Shown here piece by piece: positions 31,950-37,626 of a DNA stretch of 64,000 nucleotides. Position 1 is the first letter of the stretch; the number at the start of each line of letters is the position of its first letter. Source of the stretch: a virus; IMG/VR virus record IMGVR_UViG_3300036766_000686, positions 1-64,000 of that record; one strand, 5' to 3'. The notes beneath the pieces are model-generated. The model searched no databases. It had not been told where the DNA came from and worked only from the letters and a program-made list of their open reading frames with translations. Both the position numbers and the translations under genes were made by a program.

Positions 31950-34900
31950 TTACTCATACGCCTCAACCTTTTCGTGCTTATCGAGTGACCACGCCCCTCC
32001 GTCTATCCCGTGTAAAATCGTCTTGATCAATGCTCCGTTTTTGATGCTAGGTTTCAACTCTCTCCACGAGGACGCGAAACACAAGACGCGCAAAAACTCG
32101 CCATTGCAAGCGAGCCCAAACCTGCCCATCGCACGCCCTTCTTTGTCAAAAAGTTCCGACACCCTCGCCACAACTCCTATCACCTTTGCCCTCTTGTCGC
32201 TCAGTCTTACAACCCCCGCTCTCCCCAGTTTCTTATCCGCTCGATTATTCCACTCCCTCAAAGTCGCAGGGTGTTCGAGGAACAACTGCTCCGCATAGGA
32301 CTTAATAGACTTGTCGTCCATCAACTTTCGAATGTCCGCTAGATAGTTGATGTAAACATTATGCCACTCCGCAGACACGTCTCCGCAGACAAGCAACGGG
32401 ACTCCATAATCTATGACTGGGCGAAACTCCTCGTATAAGTTCCAATCGAGCTTCGCCCACAACGTCGTTCCGCTTGCGCCCTCCAGCAAGACCTTCAACC
32501 ACTTTCGGTCCCACCCCTTGTGCTCTCTCTCCTTCTCAGTCCCGGGAATGTTTTCTGCCAACGTCGTGTCCCCGACAAGTCTTTCCTGAAAATCTTTCAC
32601 AGCCCCAGCAAGGTAAACCGTTCCCGTCTCCGCAAACAACTCCTCCGATACATCGAATAAAGCTACCTTGACCTTTTCGTTGATGAATCCTTCAAGGTCC
32701 ACGAGCGGGTGGGGCAACATGGCAATAGGATTTATTTCAGCGGCAACCGTCAAGCGTTCCCTCTCGGAATACTGAGGCGCGGAGTGAAGGCGCGCACCAA
32801 AAGCTTTAACAAACTCCTCCTCTTTCCCTTTTGCCACGTAGGTCCAGAAGGCTTCGAAGTTCTCCACGACCCACTTGGGATTCACGAGCAGCGAATCCAG
32901 GGCTCCCGACTTCGCCAACACGAGCACCGTTCTCTTTGTAACAGCCCTTCCCCTCCGTCGCAAAAAATCAACAAGGTCAGCGTAAGCGCCCCCCTTACCG
33001 CGCTCCTCAACGATTGATTGCGCTCCAGCTTCTCCAACCCCTTTGATATGCAACAACGACCCGACAATGCACTCCCCATCTTTGTCGAGGGCAAAGCGGG
33101 CGCTGGACTTGTTGATATCGGGAAAGCGAACTGTGACTCCGTGCCTCTCCGCGTCCTTAGCGTATCGTCTAACCTGATCAAGGTCGGGTTCGTTCGCCAA
33201 CAACGCCCAATAGAACTCCAGCGCCCAATGACATTTCAAATACATGGTCCAATACGAGTGCAACGAATAGGAGACGGCATGGGAGTTATGAGAAACAAGC
33301 CCGTTAGCTAAGGTGAATAAATGATCTCCCCCAACTTCGATATCAACCACCGGTCGCACACCCGCGTCCTCCCAGCGTACAAGTCTCCGATAAGAGTAAG
33401 TCCGAAAGGCGGGTCCTTCAGTATTCGAAGCACAGGAAGTTCCCAAACTTTGCGCAAATTTCCGGATGTGGAAAAGCAGTCTATCGACAAACGAACCAAA
33501 GATTTTTTTTGTTTTATTTTGATCCAACGGTCTAAAGCATCGTCCCTCTCTGCTGTTATCTGAAAACGATCTTCTCCCCATAAAGGTTGGAAATGGTGAA
33601 GCCCATCTACCTCGATTAAAAAAGGGCCAACGAAATCTACTTGCCGAACCATTGTTCCTATCCGTATTTGGACATTTCTCTTGAAGGTTGATTGATCCAA
33701 CAAGCTCCAAATTTTTTCTTCCATATGAGAAACCGTCTTCCGTCTTATTTCTCCCGTCGCCATTCGTGCCGACAGCCGTCTCCCTATCTCTTGAATTTTT
33801 TCCGGGTTTCTCGTCCGCCACTCTTTTAGGCGCCGCGACCGAGCTTCCAAAATGTCTTGTCGAGAAGAGGTTTTTTTCGCCGTTAGTCTCGCCCACTCGA
33901 TTATCTTGGCCCTCTCGGCAGGATCGGCCCACCTCTTGCGACAGTTCTCCGCTCGAATATTCAACTTCACTTGTTGGCATACCGTACAGTGTTTTAAGTG
34001 CTCGGTCTTTTGCGACCTCACTTGAAAACTCTGGCCGCAAAGTGTCTTCCATCCTCCGAACTTTCGTTTCATCGACAAGCAATCCGGACACGTCCGCTGA
34101 TGGTCGATAACTTTTTTCATTCCTCGAAGTTCCTGCCCACACCTCGTCTTGTAGAACACACAAGCCTTCCTCAATAATTTCTCTGGTGCTGCATATCCCT
34201 CGTTCGGTTTGCCATCTGTGCCCGAGAGTGCATACCGTTGTTGAACCATCATCAAACTCCAACCTAACCGTTGGCCTGTATTCAATCGGCCAAATATGAA
34301 TTACTTTTTGAGTTGTAGGTTTGCCGTTTAAGAACCCAAATATCTTGTCGCCAGCACGTAACTGCCCGATCTCCTTCTCTCCTTCAACCGTAGCGACTTT
34401 TTCGGATATGTCAATACACTTGTTGAAACCGTATCGTCCGAATTTCACAATGGCATCCCACAACTCGTTTCCCACATGCGCGCTCATATCGGGGGTTCGC
34501 TTCGCGCAACCATCAAGAAACATCTTGCGAAAATCCTCGATTGCGGCGGCGCCTTCGGACTTGCCGATCTTCTTCCTCAATCTATCAGCTTCCTCAGCAG
34601 AGAACCCCGCTACGTCCGTTGCAATCTTGATCACCTGCTCTTGGAATATCAGCAGCCCGAAAGTTTCCTTCGTAATTGCTCCAACTTTGGGGTGGAATAG
34701 TTGCTCCTCTGTGCGCTCAGGCCTCTCTTGTCGAAGTTTGTACTCCGTAGCGAAATCTTTGGCGCCGGGGCGATTTACTGCGTTTAAGTTCACCACATCG
34801 TTAAAGCCCTTGAACGTAAGCCCCAAGGAACAACGGTGAGCGGACGAACTATCAAACTGAAATACTCCTACGAAATCGTGTCCCGTGAACGCTTCTAGCG

Positions 34901-36821
34901 TCTTGGGATCGTCAAGAGGAATACCGTATAACGCGAACGCGGGGGAGACTTGTTTGATGGCTTGCTCGGCTTCGCTCAGTACCGTCACCGTACGGGAGGA
35001 TAAGACGTCTATCTTAATGAGCCCCAACCCTTCAATGCCTTCCATGTCAAACGCCGTTACCACTCCCTTGTTACGGACCTCGATCGGACAGGTATTAACG
35101 ATAGGCTCTGGCGCAACAACAACCCCCGCCGCATGAACGCCAAAGGATTTCGTAAGTCCCTCCAGCGCCACAGCGTGTGCAACCACAGAAGGATTTTCCG
35201 CGGCGAACTTCTTAAAAATGTCCTTGTCTTTTAGCGCCTTCTCGATTGCTCCTCGATCGTCTTGCGGCTCGATAGCGGAGGCGGCAATCGAGACGGACTG
35301 GTAAGGAACGTCAAAAACGCGCGCAACGTCTCGCAATACCGCCTTGCCGTTCATCCTGCCGAGGGTCCCGATCAACGCAACTTTTTCCTCTCCGTACTTC
35401 TCCTTCAAATATTCAACGATCTCTCCGCGCCTGTCCGCACTAAAATCAATGTCACAGTCAGGCATGTTGATACGCCCCGGGGAGATAAATCGTTCAAACA
35501 TCAAGTCAAATACGATCGGGTCAACGTCGGTTATCCCGAGTAAATACGAAATGAGGGACCCCGCCGCGCTTCCTCGTCCCGGACCTTTTGCTATCCCATG
35601 CTCCCGCGCCCACCTACATACGTCGTATAAGATCAAGAAGTAATCCACGAATCCGTATTTACCCAGCACCTTCAACTCCCGCGCCACTCGCGCGGTATAA
35701 CTATCGAACTGAGCAGAGGGCAGCTTGTCGAGCCCGCGCGCCCTTATCCCCTCCCCCGCTAAGTTTATCAAATACTCAGCAGAGGATAAGAAGGGAGGAG
35801 GCAAGGATACATGAGGTAATCGAGCTTTCAAAGGATCAATAACTATTCGCGCGCTACACCTTTCGGCAAGTTCCACAGTATTGCGCAACGATTGTTCCAC
35901 TAAGTGCTCAGGAATGTGATGGTGATACTCTGAAAACCCATGCCGCATTTCCTCAGCGGACTTGAGGAAATACTGTGTGCCATCGAATGTAAAGCGATCG
36001 TCCGTTGCCATCGTCGCCTTCGTGCCTATCGCCAACATGACCTCGTGGTGCGCCGCGTCTTGCTCCCGCAAGTAATGAGCGTCTTGAGTTGCTAACAGTT
36101 TGCACTTCCCGCCCGTCAGTGCCAGACAATCCAACGCGAACTGATTTACCCGTTGTTGCCTTGCCTCGCGTAAATCGTGAGGCATGATTTCAAGGTAAAG
36201 GTTCTCCCCGAAGGTATCGTAAAGCATGGAAAACGCTAAGTCCAAATCTTGTGATCTTTTCTCAATCAACGCTCCATTGATCACCGATCCCGCGCACCCC
36301 GTTCCCACAGCAAGCCCTTTGCTCATAGAGCATAGGAACTGTAAATCTATTCTAGGTTTATAATAGAATCCTTCAAGCCACGCCTTGCTCGATAGTGCAT
36401 ACAAGTTCCTAAGCCCTTCGTCGTCCAGAGCCCACACCGTCAAGTGTTCAACGCGCCTGATGCCCTTCTCCTTTTCTATCTTCTTAATCTCCTCGCGTGT
36501 TCTCTTGCGCTTACCGGAGAAATCAGGATTTACAACGAATAGCTCCCCGCTCGTTTCTTCTTCGTATTTTTCAGCGTCCTCAAGTCCCCGCTGTTTCATG
36601 TCCTTGCCAACGTAGAACTCGACGCCATAGACAGGCTTGACCCCATGCTTATTGCACTGAGCGGTCAACAGGTACGCCCCACGGATCGTTCCGTGATCAG
36701 TCAACGCAATCGCGCCATCTCCTCGCTTCGCCGCAGCTTGAACATAGTCCTCGACACGGGCGCACCCGTCCAGCGCACTCATATCCGAATGAACGTGAAG
36801 GTGGACGAACTCACCGCCCAT
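31950..36821 (-). CDS. dnaE: DNA polymerase III alpha subunit with intein
   Basis: PHP domain FVHLHVHSDMSALDG, TDHG, GPGRGSAAGS, catalytic MPDCDIDF, HAAGVV, KIDVL, FQEQV, and YGFNK/SHAVSY split by the intein. Start ATG 36821 after GGAGG. Confidence 0.97.
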   Translation of the reverse strand: MGGEFVHLHVHSDMSALDGCARVEDYVQAAAKRGDGAIALTDHGTIRGAYLLTAQCNKHGVKPVYGVEFYVGKDMKQRGLEDAEKYEEETSGELFVVNPDFSGKRKRTREEIKKIEKEKGIRRVEHLTVWALDDEGLRNLYALSSKAWLEGFYYKPRIDLQFLCSMSKGLAVGTGCAGSVINGALIEKRSQDLDLAFSMLYDTFGENLYLEIMPHDLREARQQRVNQFALDCLALTGGKCKLLATQDAHYLREQDAAHHEVMLAIGTKATMATDDRFTFDGTQYFLKSAEEMRHGFSEYHHHIPEHLVEQSLRNTVELAERCSARIVIDPLKARLPHVSLPPPFLSSAEYLINLAGEGIRARGLDKLPSAQFDSYTARVARELKVLGKYGFVDYFLILYDVCRWAREHGIAKGPGRGSAAGSLISYLLGITDVDPIVFDLMFERFISPGRINMPDCDIDFSADRRGEIVEYLKEKYGEEKVALIGTLGRMNGKAVLRDVARVFDVPYQSVSIAASAIEPQDDRGAIEKALKDKDIFKKFAAENPSVVAHAVALEGLTKSFGVHAAGVVVAPEPIVNTCPIEVRNKGVVTAFDMEGIEGLGLIKIDVLSSRTVTVLSEAEQAIKQVSPAFALYGIPLDDPKTLEAFTGHDFVGVFQFDSSSAHRCSLGLTFKGFNDVVNLNAVNRPGAKDFATEYKLRQERPERTEEQLFHPKVGAITKETFGLLIFQEQVIKIATDVAGFSAEEADRLRKKIGKSEGAAAIEDFRKMFLDGCAKRTPDMSAHVGNELWDAIVKFGRYGFNKCIDISEKVATVEGEKEIGQLRAGDKIFGFLNGKPTTQKVIHIWPIEYRPTVRLEFDDGSTTVCTLGHRWQTERGICSTREIIEEGLCVLQDEVWAGTSRNEKSYRPSADVSGLLVDETKVRRMEDTLRPEFSSEVAKDRALKTLYGMPTSEVEYSSGELSQEVGRSCREGQDNRVGETNGEKNLFSTRHFGSSVAAPKRVADEKPGKNSRDRETAVGTNGDGRNKTEDGFSYGRKNLELVGSINLQEKCPNTDRNNGSASRFRWPFFNRGRWASPFPTFMGRRSFSDNSREGRCFRPLDQNKTKKIFGSFVDRLLFHIRKFAQSLGTSCASNTEGPAFRTYSYRRLVRWEDAGVRPVVDIEVGGDHLFTLANGLVSHNSHAVSYSLHSYWTMYLKCHWALEFYWALLANEPDLDQVRRYAKDAERHGVTVRFPDINKSSARFALDKDGECIVGSLLHIKGVGEAGAQSIVEERGKGGAYADLVDFLRRRGRAVTKRTVLVLAKSGALDSLLVNPKWVVENFEAFWTYVAKGKEEEFVKAFGARLHSAPQYSERERLTVAAEINPIAMLPHPLVDLEGFINEKVKVALFDVSEELFAETGTVYLAGAVKDFQERLVGDTTLAENIPGTEKEREHKGWDRKWLKVLLEGASGTTLWAKLDWNLYEEFRPVIDYGVPLLVCGDVSAEWHNVYINYLADIRKLMDDKSIKSYAEQLFLEHPATLREWNNRADKKLGRAGVVRLSDKRAKVIGVVARVSELFDKEGRAMGRFGLACNGEFLRVLCFASSWRELKPSIKNGALIKTILHGIDGGAWSLDKHEKVEAYE
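33285..34418 (-). mobile_element. 378-aa intein in DnaE (FNK|C...HN|SHA)
   Basis: Block A CIDISEKVATVEG, block B CTLGHRW, block F VVDIEVGGDHLFTLANG, block G VSHN followed by Ser. Confidence 0.93.
33308..34159 (-). CDS. Overprinted (+1 frame) Vsr/DUF559-like PD-(D/E)xK endonuclease nested within the DnaE intein
   Basis: GTG 34159 preceded by GAGGAAGG. Two C-x12-H-x3-C-x2-C repeats, a basic helical region, then SHMEEKIW...RQVDF...LIEVDGLHHF...ERDDALD...LVRL. Confidence 0.8.
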   Translation of the reverse strand: MFYKTRCGQELRGMKKVIDHQRTCPDCLSMKRKFGGWKTLCGQSFQVRSQKTEHLKHCTVCQQVKLNIRAENCRKRWADPAERAKIIEWARLTAKKTSSRQDILEARSRRLKEWRTRNPEKIQEIGRRLSARMATGEIRRKTVSHMEEKIWSLLDQSTFKRNVQIRIGTMVRQVDFVGPFLIEVDGLHHFQPLWGEDRFQITAERDDALDRWIKIKQKKSLVRLSIDCFSTSGNLRKVWELPVLRILKDPPFGLTLIGDLYAGRTRVCDRWLISKLGEIIYSP

Positions 36822-37626
36822 AATAACCCTCCGCAATCACGGCAAACGCCTTCCCGCACCTACGCGCCTCGTAAGCTGTAGACATATAAAGTCTAAGCGT
36901 TGTAAACCTCGCCTCCGCAATACGACAACGAAACGGGGGAACACAGTTGTTTAAGCGCTCAGCAATCTCGACACGCCAACGTCTTACCCCGATTATTCTT
37001 GTCATCGCCCCACCCTTCCAATCCTCGAACGTGCAAACAACGCGCGGGGTATGTTCAAGTCTTAGGACTTCACGAGGACGGGTGTCTATGCGATACAGCG
37101 ACCCTTCGATCGCCGCAACATATCTCTCCTCGCCCTTCTCCCCCAACACGTATGCCGCGGGGTGCGCAAGTTCAAGGCCGCTTAGGAAATGCTGGAATAG
37201 CTTTTCACCACGCCTCTCCATGCGCTCTCGGGCAAAGCGCTCCATCATTTTCGAGCGTCCTCTATCCAATGTCGCCCTCGTCCGCTCCGCGTTTATTCTA
37301 TCCACCCGCTCCTCATTCAACGGTCCGACAACGCCTTGCTTCCTCAAGCGCTCGACCCTACGCATCCAACTTTTTATCTGCCCTATCTCCCGCCTTCTGC
37401 TTACGAACCTCTCCGTTTCTATCTCGTTTAGTTTGCAATAAGTTCGGAAGCGTTCACATGCTGTCCGAAACTCACACCTTCCGACGTTGTTTCCTCGCGA
37501 AGGCAACCCGTGTATCGTGTTACGCTTGATGCCTTCGCACCTTTCCGCTCCGATGGCGAACGCGCCGAAGCATCGAGGAACCACGCGTGCGGATATTAAC
37601 TTGTGTTTACTTTTCTTATACTTCAC
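36811..37626 (-). CDS. Hypothetical Arg-rich protein with Cys motif
   Basis: 271-aa ORF overlapping the dnaE start. CFG...C...C...C motif. Confidence 0.6.
   Translation of the reverse strand: MKYKKSKHKLISARVVPRCFGAFAIGAERCEGIKRNTIHGLPSRGNNVGRCEFRTACERFRTYCKLNEIETERFVSRRREIGQIKSWMRRVERLRKQGVVGPLNEERVDRINAERTRATLDRGRSKMMERFARERMERRGEKLFQHFLSGLELAHPAAYVLGEKGEERYVAAIEGSLYRIDTRPREVLRLEHTPRVVCTFEDWKGGAMTRIIGVRRWRVEIAERLNNCVPPFRCRIAEARFTTLRLYMSTAYEARRCGKAFAVIAEGYYGR

What the first reader, a model, noticed from the sequence alone, without database searches (positions are those of the whole stretch)
33285..34418. DnaE intein whose endonuclease is overprinted in the +1 frame with its own ribosome-binding site
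Seen: the intein has intact splicing blocks (CIDIS..., TLGH, ...VSHN|S). Its ~270-aa middle, read in the DnaE frame, shows no LAGLIDADG or HNH motif and looks like shadow translation. The same DNA in the +1 frame (GTG 34159 after GAGGAAGG, stop 33308, 283 aa) encodes two C-x12-H-x3-C-x2-C zinc-finger repeats, a basic helical region and a Vsr/DUF559-type nuclease (VDF...IEVDGxHH...RD). Both frames are stop-free for ~850 nt; a rough uniform-codon estimate puts this near 1e-6 by chance. The nuclease even overlaps intein block F. Established: canonical inteins carry the homing endonuclease in frame between the splicing halves. Inference: this is a dual-coding selfish element, in which a free-standing nuclease hides in a mini-intein that splices out the junk frame. 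Nuclease expression would then be uncoupled from polymerase translation and splicing.
Basis: partly seen in the sequence, partly recalled or inferred. Interest (0 to 1): 0.9.

Follow-up and report, generated by a model that had tools for sequence, protein, structure and literature searches.

The report
Intein with out-of-frame homing nuclease gene
A phage DNA polymerase gene carries a self-splicing protein insert (intein) whose middle also encodes, one base out of step, a complete DNA-cutting enzyme; selection keeps both readings open in more than 20 related phages, but this kind of layout has been described before for other inteins.

Summary
The window is a 91.7-kb virus record.

- **Layout:** its dnaE (31950-36836, minus strand) has a 378-codon intein at 33285-34418. 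The +1 frame is open from 34285 to 33308.
- **Host frame:** only intein residues 1-88 and 340-378 fold, as a HINT splicing domain. Residues 90-338 have pLDDT below 50.
- **+1 frame:** the product folds (pLDDT 76.5). It has two zinc fingers, a helical region and a nuclease domain. The best structural matches are Vsr (Z 9.0) and the homing endonuclease I-Bth0305I (Z 7.6).
- **Relatives:** 26 of 28 fetched phage and metagenome loci show the same layout at the same DnaE site.
- **Selection:** dN/dS is 0.06-0.17 in the +1 frame and 1.2-2.1 in the host frame.
- **Stop avoidance:** none of 1483 codon junctions that could create a host-frame stop does so. For the window, the chance of this is 3.5e-6.
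- **Variants:** one relative is the broken form with a split intein, and one has a decayed nuclease.

Expression, splicing and cleavage are untested.

The kind is already known (Gorbalenya 1998, as cited by Phillips 2026; Gosselin 2025; Phillips 2026). I did not find this nuclease family, in the sense +1 frame of a DnaE intein, in that literature. This scan has reported the same family on other genomes before.

The parts
31950..36836 (-). Phage dnaE (DNA polymerase III alpha) gene, one open frame of 1628 codons including the intein.
   Evidence: Neighbours are phage replication, recombination and tail genes. The genome is a 91.7-kb virus record.
33285..34418 (-). Intein, 378 codons in the dnaE frame, inserted at GFNK|SHA.
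   Evidence: Cys1, TLGH and HN|S are present. The same insertion site is used in 20 complete relatives.
34155..34418 (-). N-terminal splicing domain (intein residues 1-88).
   Evidence: AF2 pLDDT is about 90-96. Foldseek hits solved inteins with probability 1.00. Mean identity among relatives is 43%.
33402..34154 (-). Host-frame linker (intein residues 89-339): stop-free but unconserved and predicted unstructured.
   Evidence: pLDDT is below 50 for residues 90-338. Identity is 19%, no better than the non-coding frame. Host-frame dN/dS is 1.2-2.1.
33285..33401 (-). C-terminal splicing domain (blocks F and G, ending HN).
   Evidence: pLDDT is 87-97. Identity among relatives is 52%.
33308..34252 (-). 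Nuclease gene in the +1 frame. It gives 314 or 313 aa from ATG 34252 or 34249, or 283 aa from GTG 34159. Stop is TAG 33310-33308.
   Evidence: Homologues at 44-47% identity. 472 representative clusters at E <= 0.001. +1-frame dN/dS is 0.06-0.17 in relatives.
34257..34260 (-). GGAG, lying 4 and 7 bases before ATG 34252 and ATG 34249. Candidate ribosome-binding site at the start position shared with relatives.
34165..34172 (-). GAGGAAGG, 5 bases before GTG 34159.
33977..34141 (-). Two zinc-finger-like repeats, C-x12-H-x3-C-x2-C (residues 7-27 and 41-61 of the 283-aa form).
   Evidence: A profile of the family hits C2H2 zinc fingers in PDB sequences weakly (E 8e-4).
33344..33736 (-). Vsr-like PD-(D/E)xK nuclease domain (residues 142-272). 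Family-invariant residues are D175, E183, D185, H189, R205 and D206.
   Evidence: VIA-align: Vsr 1cw0_A Z 9.0 (117 aligned, rmsd 3.9) and I-Bth0305I 3r3p_B Z 7.6 (93 aligned). Invariant columns are listed.

Best explanation
This is a contiguous class-1 intein in a phage dnaE gene. It carries a free-standing-type, Vsr-like zinc-finger homing endonuclease gene overprinted in the +1 frame of its own middle.

- Shown: the polymerase frame runs through about 250 codons that carry no conserved or foldable protein. It is kept free of stops only by the choice of synonymous codons in the nuclease frame.
- Shown: the +1 frame is under purifying selection in relatives and encodes a folded nuclease.
- Shown: nuclease and splicing domain have diverged together as one unit.
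- Inferred: ribosomes translating dnaE make a precursor whose two HINT halves, joined by a long disordered linker, fold together and splice the whole insert out. That restores DnaE at GFNK-SHA.
- Inferred: the nuclease is made separately by internal initiation on the same mRNA, at ATG 34252/34249 after GGAG or at GTG 34159 after GAGGAAGG.
- Inferred: the nuclease cuts intein-less dnaE alleles of co-infecting phages, so that repair copies the element in (homing).
For: 1. The anatomy is as described.
2. In 26 of 28 fetched loci the frame one base upstream of the nuclease frame is open across the whole nuclease ORF, inside a 1-5 kb dnaE ORF. The third frame is always closed. All sit at GFN(K/R)|[C/S/T]...N|SH.
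3. Nucleotide variability at nuclease codon positions 1/2/3 is 0.49/0.41/0.66. Amino-acid identity is 41% (+1), 19.5% (host) and 20.7% (+2).
4. Nei-Gojobori dN/dS on the closest pairs is 0.06-0.17 in +1 and 1.2-2.1 in the host frame.
5. None of 1483 junctions has a T before AA/AG/GA, against 27.7% T at third positions elsewhere. P(no host stop) is 3.5e-6 for the window and 4e-3 to 2e-11 for the others.
6. The host-frame model shows a HINT fold only, with residues 90-338 below pLDDT 50.
7. The +1 model has pLDDT 76.5 and matches Vsr (Z 9.0) and I-Bth0305I (Z 7.6).
8. All but one of the 150 best family representatives are 120-430 aa, the length of stand-alone genes.
9. An SD-like motif 3-12 bases before a start codon precedes the first zinc finger in 18 of 20 loci.
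10. The nuclease tree and the splicing-domain tree share the same main clades.
Against: The window is the longest or second-longest branch in both trees (1.52 and 2.55 changes per column). No close relative of its DnaE was found. Selection on this particular copy therefore cannot be measured.

The start codon is ambiguous. No sigma-70-like promoter or significant RNA structure lies near it.

Sequence-level membership in named nuclease families is weak: Pfam DUF559 E 0.077, and no PDB sequence hit to Vsr or I-Bth0305I.

The SD and ATG in relatives sit in codons that the intein's own conserved residues also constrain, so their conservation is not independent evidence.
Confidence: 0.85

Rival explanations
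1. The nuclease ORF in this particular phage is a silent or dying relic. Only the polymerase frame is used, and the element is effectively a mini-intein with a long spacer.
For: The homing cycle predicts decay after fixation. One relative, L011, already has a premature stop in the nuclease frame while its host frame stays open. The window is a long branch. There are no expression data.
Against: The window's ORF is intact over 283-314 codons. It keeps every family-invariant residue: D175, E183, D185, H189, R205, D206. It folds with pLDDT 76.5 and has two SD-plus-start candidates. Relatives show strong purifying selection.
Confidence: 0.08
2. The nuclease is joined in frame to the intein by two programmed shifts. 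These would be ribosomal frameshifting or transcriptional slippage at the A runs, for example A6 near 34117 and A8 at 33510-33503. The result would be a canonical intein-endonuclease.
For: The window has six homopolymer runs of 6-8 bases inside the intein.
Against: Nine of 20 relatives have no run of 6 or more, and run positions are not conserved. The first A run lies after the first zinc-finger cysteine. Two opposite shifts would be needed. SD plus start codons are present instead.
Confidence: 0.03
3. It is an assembly or sequencing artefact. Two compensating indels hide a normal in-frame endonuclease.
Against: An out-of-frame reading of a real gene would carry about 10 stops. The host frame has none, here or in 25 other fetched loci (some redundant), whose inteins range from 42% to 59% GC. 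Stop avoidance is codon by codon (0 of 1483).
Confidence: 0.01

Closest known systems
Non-canonical actinobacteriophage inteins with the endonuclease in another frame or strand (Gosselin, Arsenault, Gogarten; bioRxiv 10.1101/2025.01.02.630785)
   Same: The intein is contiguous and its in-frame middle gives no recognisable structure. A nuclease of a free-standing type is encoded in the same DNA in a different reading. The proposed origin is invasion of an intein by a free-standing endonuclease gene.
   Different: Their cases are Endonuclease VII-like in 'frame 3', and LAGLIDADG or Vsr-like on the antisense strand. The host genes are DNA polymerase, terminase, minor capsid and thymidylate synthase genes of cultured actinophages. 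Here a Vsr-like nuclease with zinc fingers lies on the sense strand in +1, in DnaE of uncultured phages. I found no match in 50,697 GenBank phage records.
Cyanobacterial dnaX intein with an out-of-frame LAGLIDADG endonuclease (Phillips, DeSimone, Gogarten; bioRxiv 10.64898/2026.09.14.751524; first proposed by Gorbalenya 1998, as cited there)
   Same: The in-frame region is disordered and the alternative frame gives a folded nuclease. There is a Shine-Dalgarno motif before the alternative start. Omega is low in the alternative frame and raised in the host frame.
   Different: That case is LAGLIDADG in a '+2 ORF' of a bacterial dnaX gene, not a Vsr-like nuclease in +1 of a phage dnaE.
Fractured genes: split inteins flanking a free-standing Vsr-like or GIY-YIG endonuclease gene (Dassa et al. 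2009, PMC2677866)
   Same: It involves the same nuclease type (Vsr-like). DnaE is among the hosts and the setting is mainly phage and metagenomic. The nuclease 3' end overlaps the downstream intein part. Relative L015 is exactly such a fractured form at this site.
   Different: In the window the host gene is not broken, because the polymerase frame reads through the nuclease gene. That paper states that Vsr-like nucleases were not known in inteins, and its model has no overprinted contiguous stage.
I-Bth0305I (EDxHD family; Taylor et al. 2011, PMC3239194; PDB 3r3p)
   Same: The catalytic fold is the same (Z 7.6, 93 of 98 residues aligned). It is a homing endonuclease of phage origin.
   Different: It is encoded in a group I intron of recA. 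No sequence-level match was detected.

Membership tests
Class-1 intein (HINT splicing domain) | N-terminal nucleophile (Cys/Ser), block B TxxH, C-terminal Asn (usually His-Asn), and a nucleophile as first C-extein residue | tested here: met
   Cys1, TLGH and HN|S are in the window. Insertion is between GFNK and SHA, as in 20 relatives.
Class-1 intein (HINT splicing domain) | HINT fold formed by the N- and C-terminal parts | tested here: met
   AF2 pLDDT is about 90 or higher for residues 1-88 and 340-378. Foldseek hits solved inteins, E 1.4e-6, probability 1.00.
Class-1 intein (HINT splicing domain) | Protein splicing activity | not testable with these tools
   Needs expression of the dnaE segment and detection of ligated exteins.
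[quoted passage not shown] | Host frame open through the insert while its middle is unconserved and unstructured | tested here: met
[quoted passage not shown] | Alternative frame encodes a folded nuclease under purifying selection | tested here: met
   The dN/dS values come from relatives, not from the window's own lineage.
Vsr-like / EDxHD homing endonucleases | Vsr-type PD-(D/E)xK catalytic fold | tested here: met
   Vsr 1cw0_A Z 9.0 and I-Bth0305I 3r3p_B Z 7.6 are the two top rows of 48,161 chains. Vsr is also the top Foldseek row, but weakly (E 0.049).
Vsr-like / EDxHD homing endonucleases | Conserved acidic and histidine catalytic residues (Vsr Asp51, His69, Asp97, plus the family's extra Glu) | tested here: inconclusive
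   D175, E183, D185, H189 and D206 are invariant in the family and are in the right order. I did not map them residue by residue onto Vsr.
Vsr-like / EDxHD homing endonucleases | Sequence-profile match to the family | tested here: inconclusive
   Pfam DUF559 E 0.077, below the cut-off. PHROG 559 'HNH endonuclease' E 3e-5 and PHROG 9084 'homing endonuclease' E 0.027. No Vsr or 3r3p hit in the PDB sequence search.
Vsr-like / EDxHD homing endonucleases | Site-specific cleavage of the element-free allele | not testable with these tools
   Needs purified protein and an intein-less dnaE target.
Fractured gene (split intein plus free-standing endonuclease) | Host gene split into two ORFs, each ending or starting with an intein half | tested here: not met
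   The window's dnaE frame is continuous. The feature is met in relative L015.

The most novel reading that the evidence does not exclude
The overprinted contiguous intein may be the missing stage in the origin of natural split inteins. A free-standing Vsr-like nuclease gene can live inside an unbroken intein for long periods, because synonymous codon choice keeps the host frame open. A single host-frame nonsense mutation then turns it into a fractured gene with a split intein, as in L015. In most relatives the nuclease's ribosome-binding site and start codon are built from the intein's own conserved WEV and FDDG codons. If so, splicing domain and nuclease expression signals have co-evolved as one unit.
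Probability: 0.45. Interest if true: 0.65.

Novelty: new variant of a known kind. Interest (0 to 1): 0.55.

Why it matters
About 750 bases (33402-34154) here serve two readings under opposite regimes. One reading is a real protein. The other is only kept free of stops, which shows how a selfish nuclease can ride inside an essential gene without breaking it.

It puts Vsr-like nucleases into contiguous inteins on the sense strand. It also links the recently described out-of-frame intein nucleases with the fractured genes and split inteins of marine phages, with intact, decayed and broken stages all visible at one site.

In practice, gene callers report either dnaE or the nuclease but not both, so such genes are missed. 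The family could also be a source of new site-specific nucleases and of inteins that tolerate a 250-residue disordered insert.

Tried and rejected
- **Bacterial and archaeal genomes:** a genome-contig scan with the nuclease alignment found no relative.
- **GenBank phages:** tblastn with the window's nuclease and two relatives found nothing.
- **Pfam:** it names neither frame.
- **PDB sequence search:** it gave only weak C2H2 zinc-finger hits.
- **Foldseek on the whole +1 model:** weak, best E 0.049. The wide VIA-align search was needed.
- **Close relatives of the window's DnaE:** a search for intein-less alleles found only one distant, intein-less DnaE at 28% identity (L030). Sporadic distribution could not be tested.
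- **Expression signals:** there is no sigma-70-like promoter on the minus strand and no unusual RNA structure at the nuclease start (z = -0.96).
- **Frameshift fusion:** rejected, because the homopolymer runs are not conserved.

Full report
**What is there**

The window belongs to a 91.7-kb virus record. Its neighbours are a UvsX-like recombinase, SbcCD, a helicase, baseplate proteins and a tape measure.

On the minus strand, dnaE is one open frame, 31950-36836, of 1628 codons. Between GFNK and SHA it holds a 378-codon insert at 34418-33285. The insert starts with Cys, has TLGH in block B and ends with His-Asn before Ser. These are the marks of a class-1 intein.

The frame shifted one base downstream (+1) is open from 34285 to 33308. 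From GTG 34159, which lies 5 bases after GAGGAAGG, it gives 283 residues. These carry two C-x12-H-x3-C-x2-C repeats, a basic helical stretch, and the motifs VDF, IEVDGLHHF and RD.

**Is it more than chance?**

A host-frame stop arises only when a nuclease codon ending in T is followed by one starting with AA, AG or GA. The window's middle has 64 such junctions, and none has the T. Third-position T is 29% elsewhere.

Resampling synonymous codons with the ORF's own usage predicts 10.5 host-frame stops and P(none) = 3.5e-6. The remaining frame has 26 stops over the same span.

**Relatives**

The +1 product has metagenomic homologues at 44-47% identity. A profile search of 1.84 billion representative proteins finds 472 clusters at E <= 0.001. 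All but one of the 150 best are 120-430 residues long, the length of stand-alone genes.

Scans of viral and metagenome contigs returned 28 loci. Some are redundant: L004 is the same contig as L001, and L017/L018 and L014/L027 have identical flanks.

In 26 of the 28, the frame one base upstream of the nuclease frame is open across the whole nuclease ORF, as part of a 1-5 kb ORF. The third frame is always closed. In every case the long ORF is DnaE and the insert sits at the same site, GFN(K/R)|[C/S/T] ... N|SH(A/S). Intein GC ranges from 42% to 59%, so these are independent, diverged genomes. This rules out the two-compensating-indels explanation.

**Which frame is under selection?**

I used 191 gap-free middle columns of 19 sequences.

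| Measure | +1 frame | Host frame | +2 frame |
|---|---|---|---|
| Amino-acid identity | 41% | 19.5% | 20.7% (non-coding) |
| Nei-Gojobori dN/dS, closest pairs | 0.06-0.17 | 1.2-2.1 | 0.7-1.5 |

- Nucleotide differences at nuclease codon positions 1, 2 and 3 are 0.49, 0.41 and 0.66. That is the usual coding pattern for the +1 frame.
- That alignment was guided by the +1 proteins. As a control I aligned the host-frame inteins on their own. Identity is 43% in the N-terminal splicing part, 52% in the C-terminal part and 19% in the middle.
- Across all 20 complete loci, none of 1483 risky junctions carries the T, against 27.7% T elsewhere.

So the middle of the host frame is under no constraint except the avoidance of stops.

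**Structures**

- **Host frame:** with a 20-sequence alignment, the host-frame intein folds only at residues 1-88 and 340-378 (pLDDT about 90 or more). Residues 90-338 are below 50. The folded part matches solved inteins (Foldseek E 1.4e-6, probability 1.00).
- **+1 frame:** with only seven sequences, the +1 product reaches mean pLDDT 76.5.
- **Nuclease domain:** residues 142-272 give Vsr endonuclease (1cw0_A, Z 9.0, 117 aligned, rmsd 3.9) and the homing endonuclease I-Bth0305I (3r3p_B, Z 7.6, 93 aligned) as the two best of 48,161 chains. Other PD-(D/E)xK nucleases follow.
- **Sequence libraries:** these are nearly blind to it. Pfam DUF559 gives E 0.077, and PHROG 559 ('HNH endonuclease') gives E 3e-5.

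**Start of the nuclease gene**

Two candidates exist in the window: GTG 34159 after GAGGAAGG, and ATG ATG at 34252/34249 after GGAG (34260-34257).

The upstream pair sits where the relatives of one clade have their start. There the intein's conserved W-E-V and F-D-D-G residues are written as TGG GAG GTn ... GAT GAY GG. In the +1 frame this reads as GGAGGT followed 5-11 bases later by ATG. The other clade starts further downstream, again after a GGAG or GAGGT motif.

Because these bases are also constrained by the intein protein, their conservation is suggestive only. No promoter-like site or notable RNA structure was found. Internal initiation on the dnaE mRNA is the most economical inference.

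**Life cycle seen in relatives**

- L011 keeps the host frame open but has a premature stop in the nuclease frame, so it is a decaying nuclease.
- L015 keeps the nuclease but has many host-frame stops between intact N- and C-terminal intein halves. That is a fractured gene with a split intein, as described by Dassa et al. 2009.
- P0113 has the nuclease fused in frame to the N-terminal intein half.
- The trees of the nuclease and of the splicing domain share the same main clades, with the window next to L001 in both. The two parts have therefore travelled together for a long time.

**What is known**

Out-of-frame or antisense endonucleases in inteins were proposed by Gorbalenya in 1998, as cited. 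They have recently been analysed by the Gogarten group:
- Endonuclease VII-like in 'frame 3', and antisense LAGLIDADG or Vsr-like nucleases, in actinophage inteins.
- A LAGLIDADG nuclease in a +2 ORF of the cyanobacterial dnaX intein, with the same pattern of omega values.
- A hidden HNH gene in a phage methylase insertion.

Dassa et al. described Vsr-like nucleases between split-intein halves, including in DnaE, and stated that this type was not known inside inteins.

The present element is therefore a new variant of a known kind: a sense-strand, +1, Vsr-like zinc-finger nuclease in an unbroken DnaE intein of uncultured phages. GenBank phage records hold no match.

This scan has already reported the same family on other genomes. 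My tests were made independently and agree with those reports.

**Limits**

- Nothing here shows translation, splicing or cleavage.
- The window is a long branch with no close relative, so selection on this very copy is inferred from its intact ORF and retained invariant residues.
- Two tools, the look-up of encoding contigs and the look-up of sequencing runs, were closed.

Noticed in passing
L001:1616-2581 (+): The same DnaE gene in relative L001 has a second intein, at APGR|C...VSN|SDLPDID. Its host-frame middle also looks like junk. Its +1 frame holds a 321-aa ORF with several Cys-x2-Cys pairs and a D...E-x-K motif. Pfam gives a weak Phage_endo_I hit (E 1.8e-4, below the cut-off). This looks like a second, unrelated overprinted nuclease.
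   Followed up: partly
L015:1-1370: This is a fractured form of the same element. The dnaE frame has many stops between intact N- and C-terminal intein halves, while the homologous nuclease ORF, in the same relative frame, is intact.
   Followed up: partly
L011:2748-3866: The nuclease frame has a premature stop just after the EVDG..HF motif, while the dnaE frame stays open. This is a decaying nuclease in an otherwise intact intein.
   Followed up: partly
P0113 (779 aa, metagenome protein): This is a DnaE fragment with an upstream mini-intein. After GFNR|T comes an N-terminal intein half that continues in frame into a homologous nuclease and then stops. It is a fused variant.
   Followed up: no
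L002, L005-L011, L016 (intein first and last residues): Nine of the 20 complete inteins at this site begin with Thr and ten with Ser; only the window's begins with Cys. Eighteen of the 20 end in Ser-Asn or Cys-Asn instead of His-Asn. A Thr at position 1 is unusual for inteins. Only the window and L001 have His-Asn.
   Followed up: no
window 33503-33510 and five other runs in 33285-34418: The intein holds six homopolymer runs of 6-8 bases, including an A8. Their positions are not conserved in relatives.
   Followed up: yes
window 36821-36836: The dnaE ORF as listed starts at TTG 36836. An in-frame ATG five codons downstream (36821) is an alternative start.
   Followed up: no
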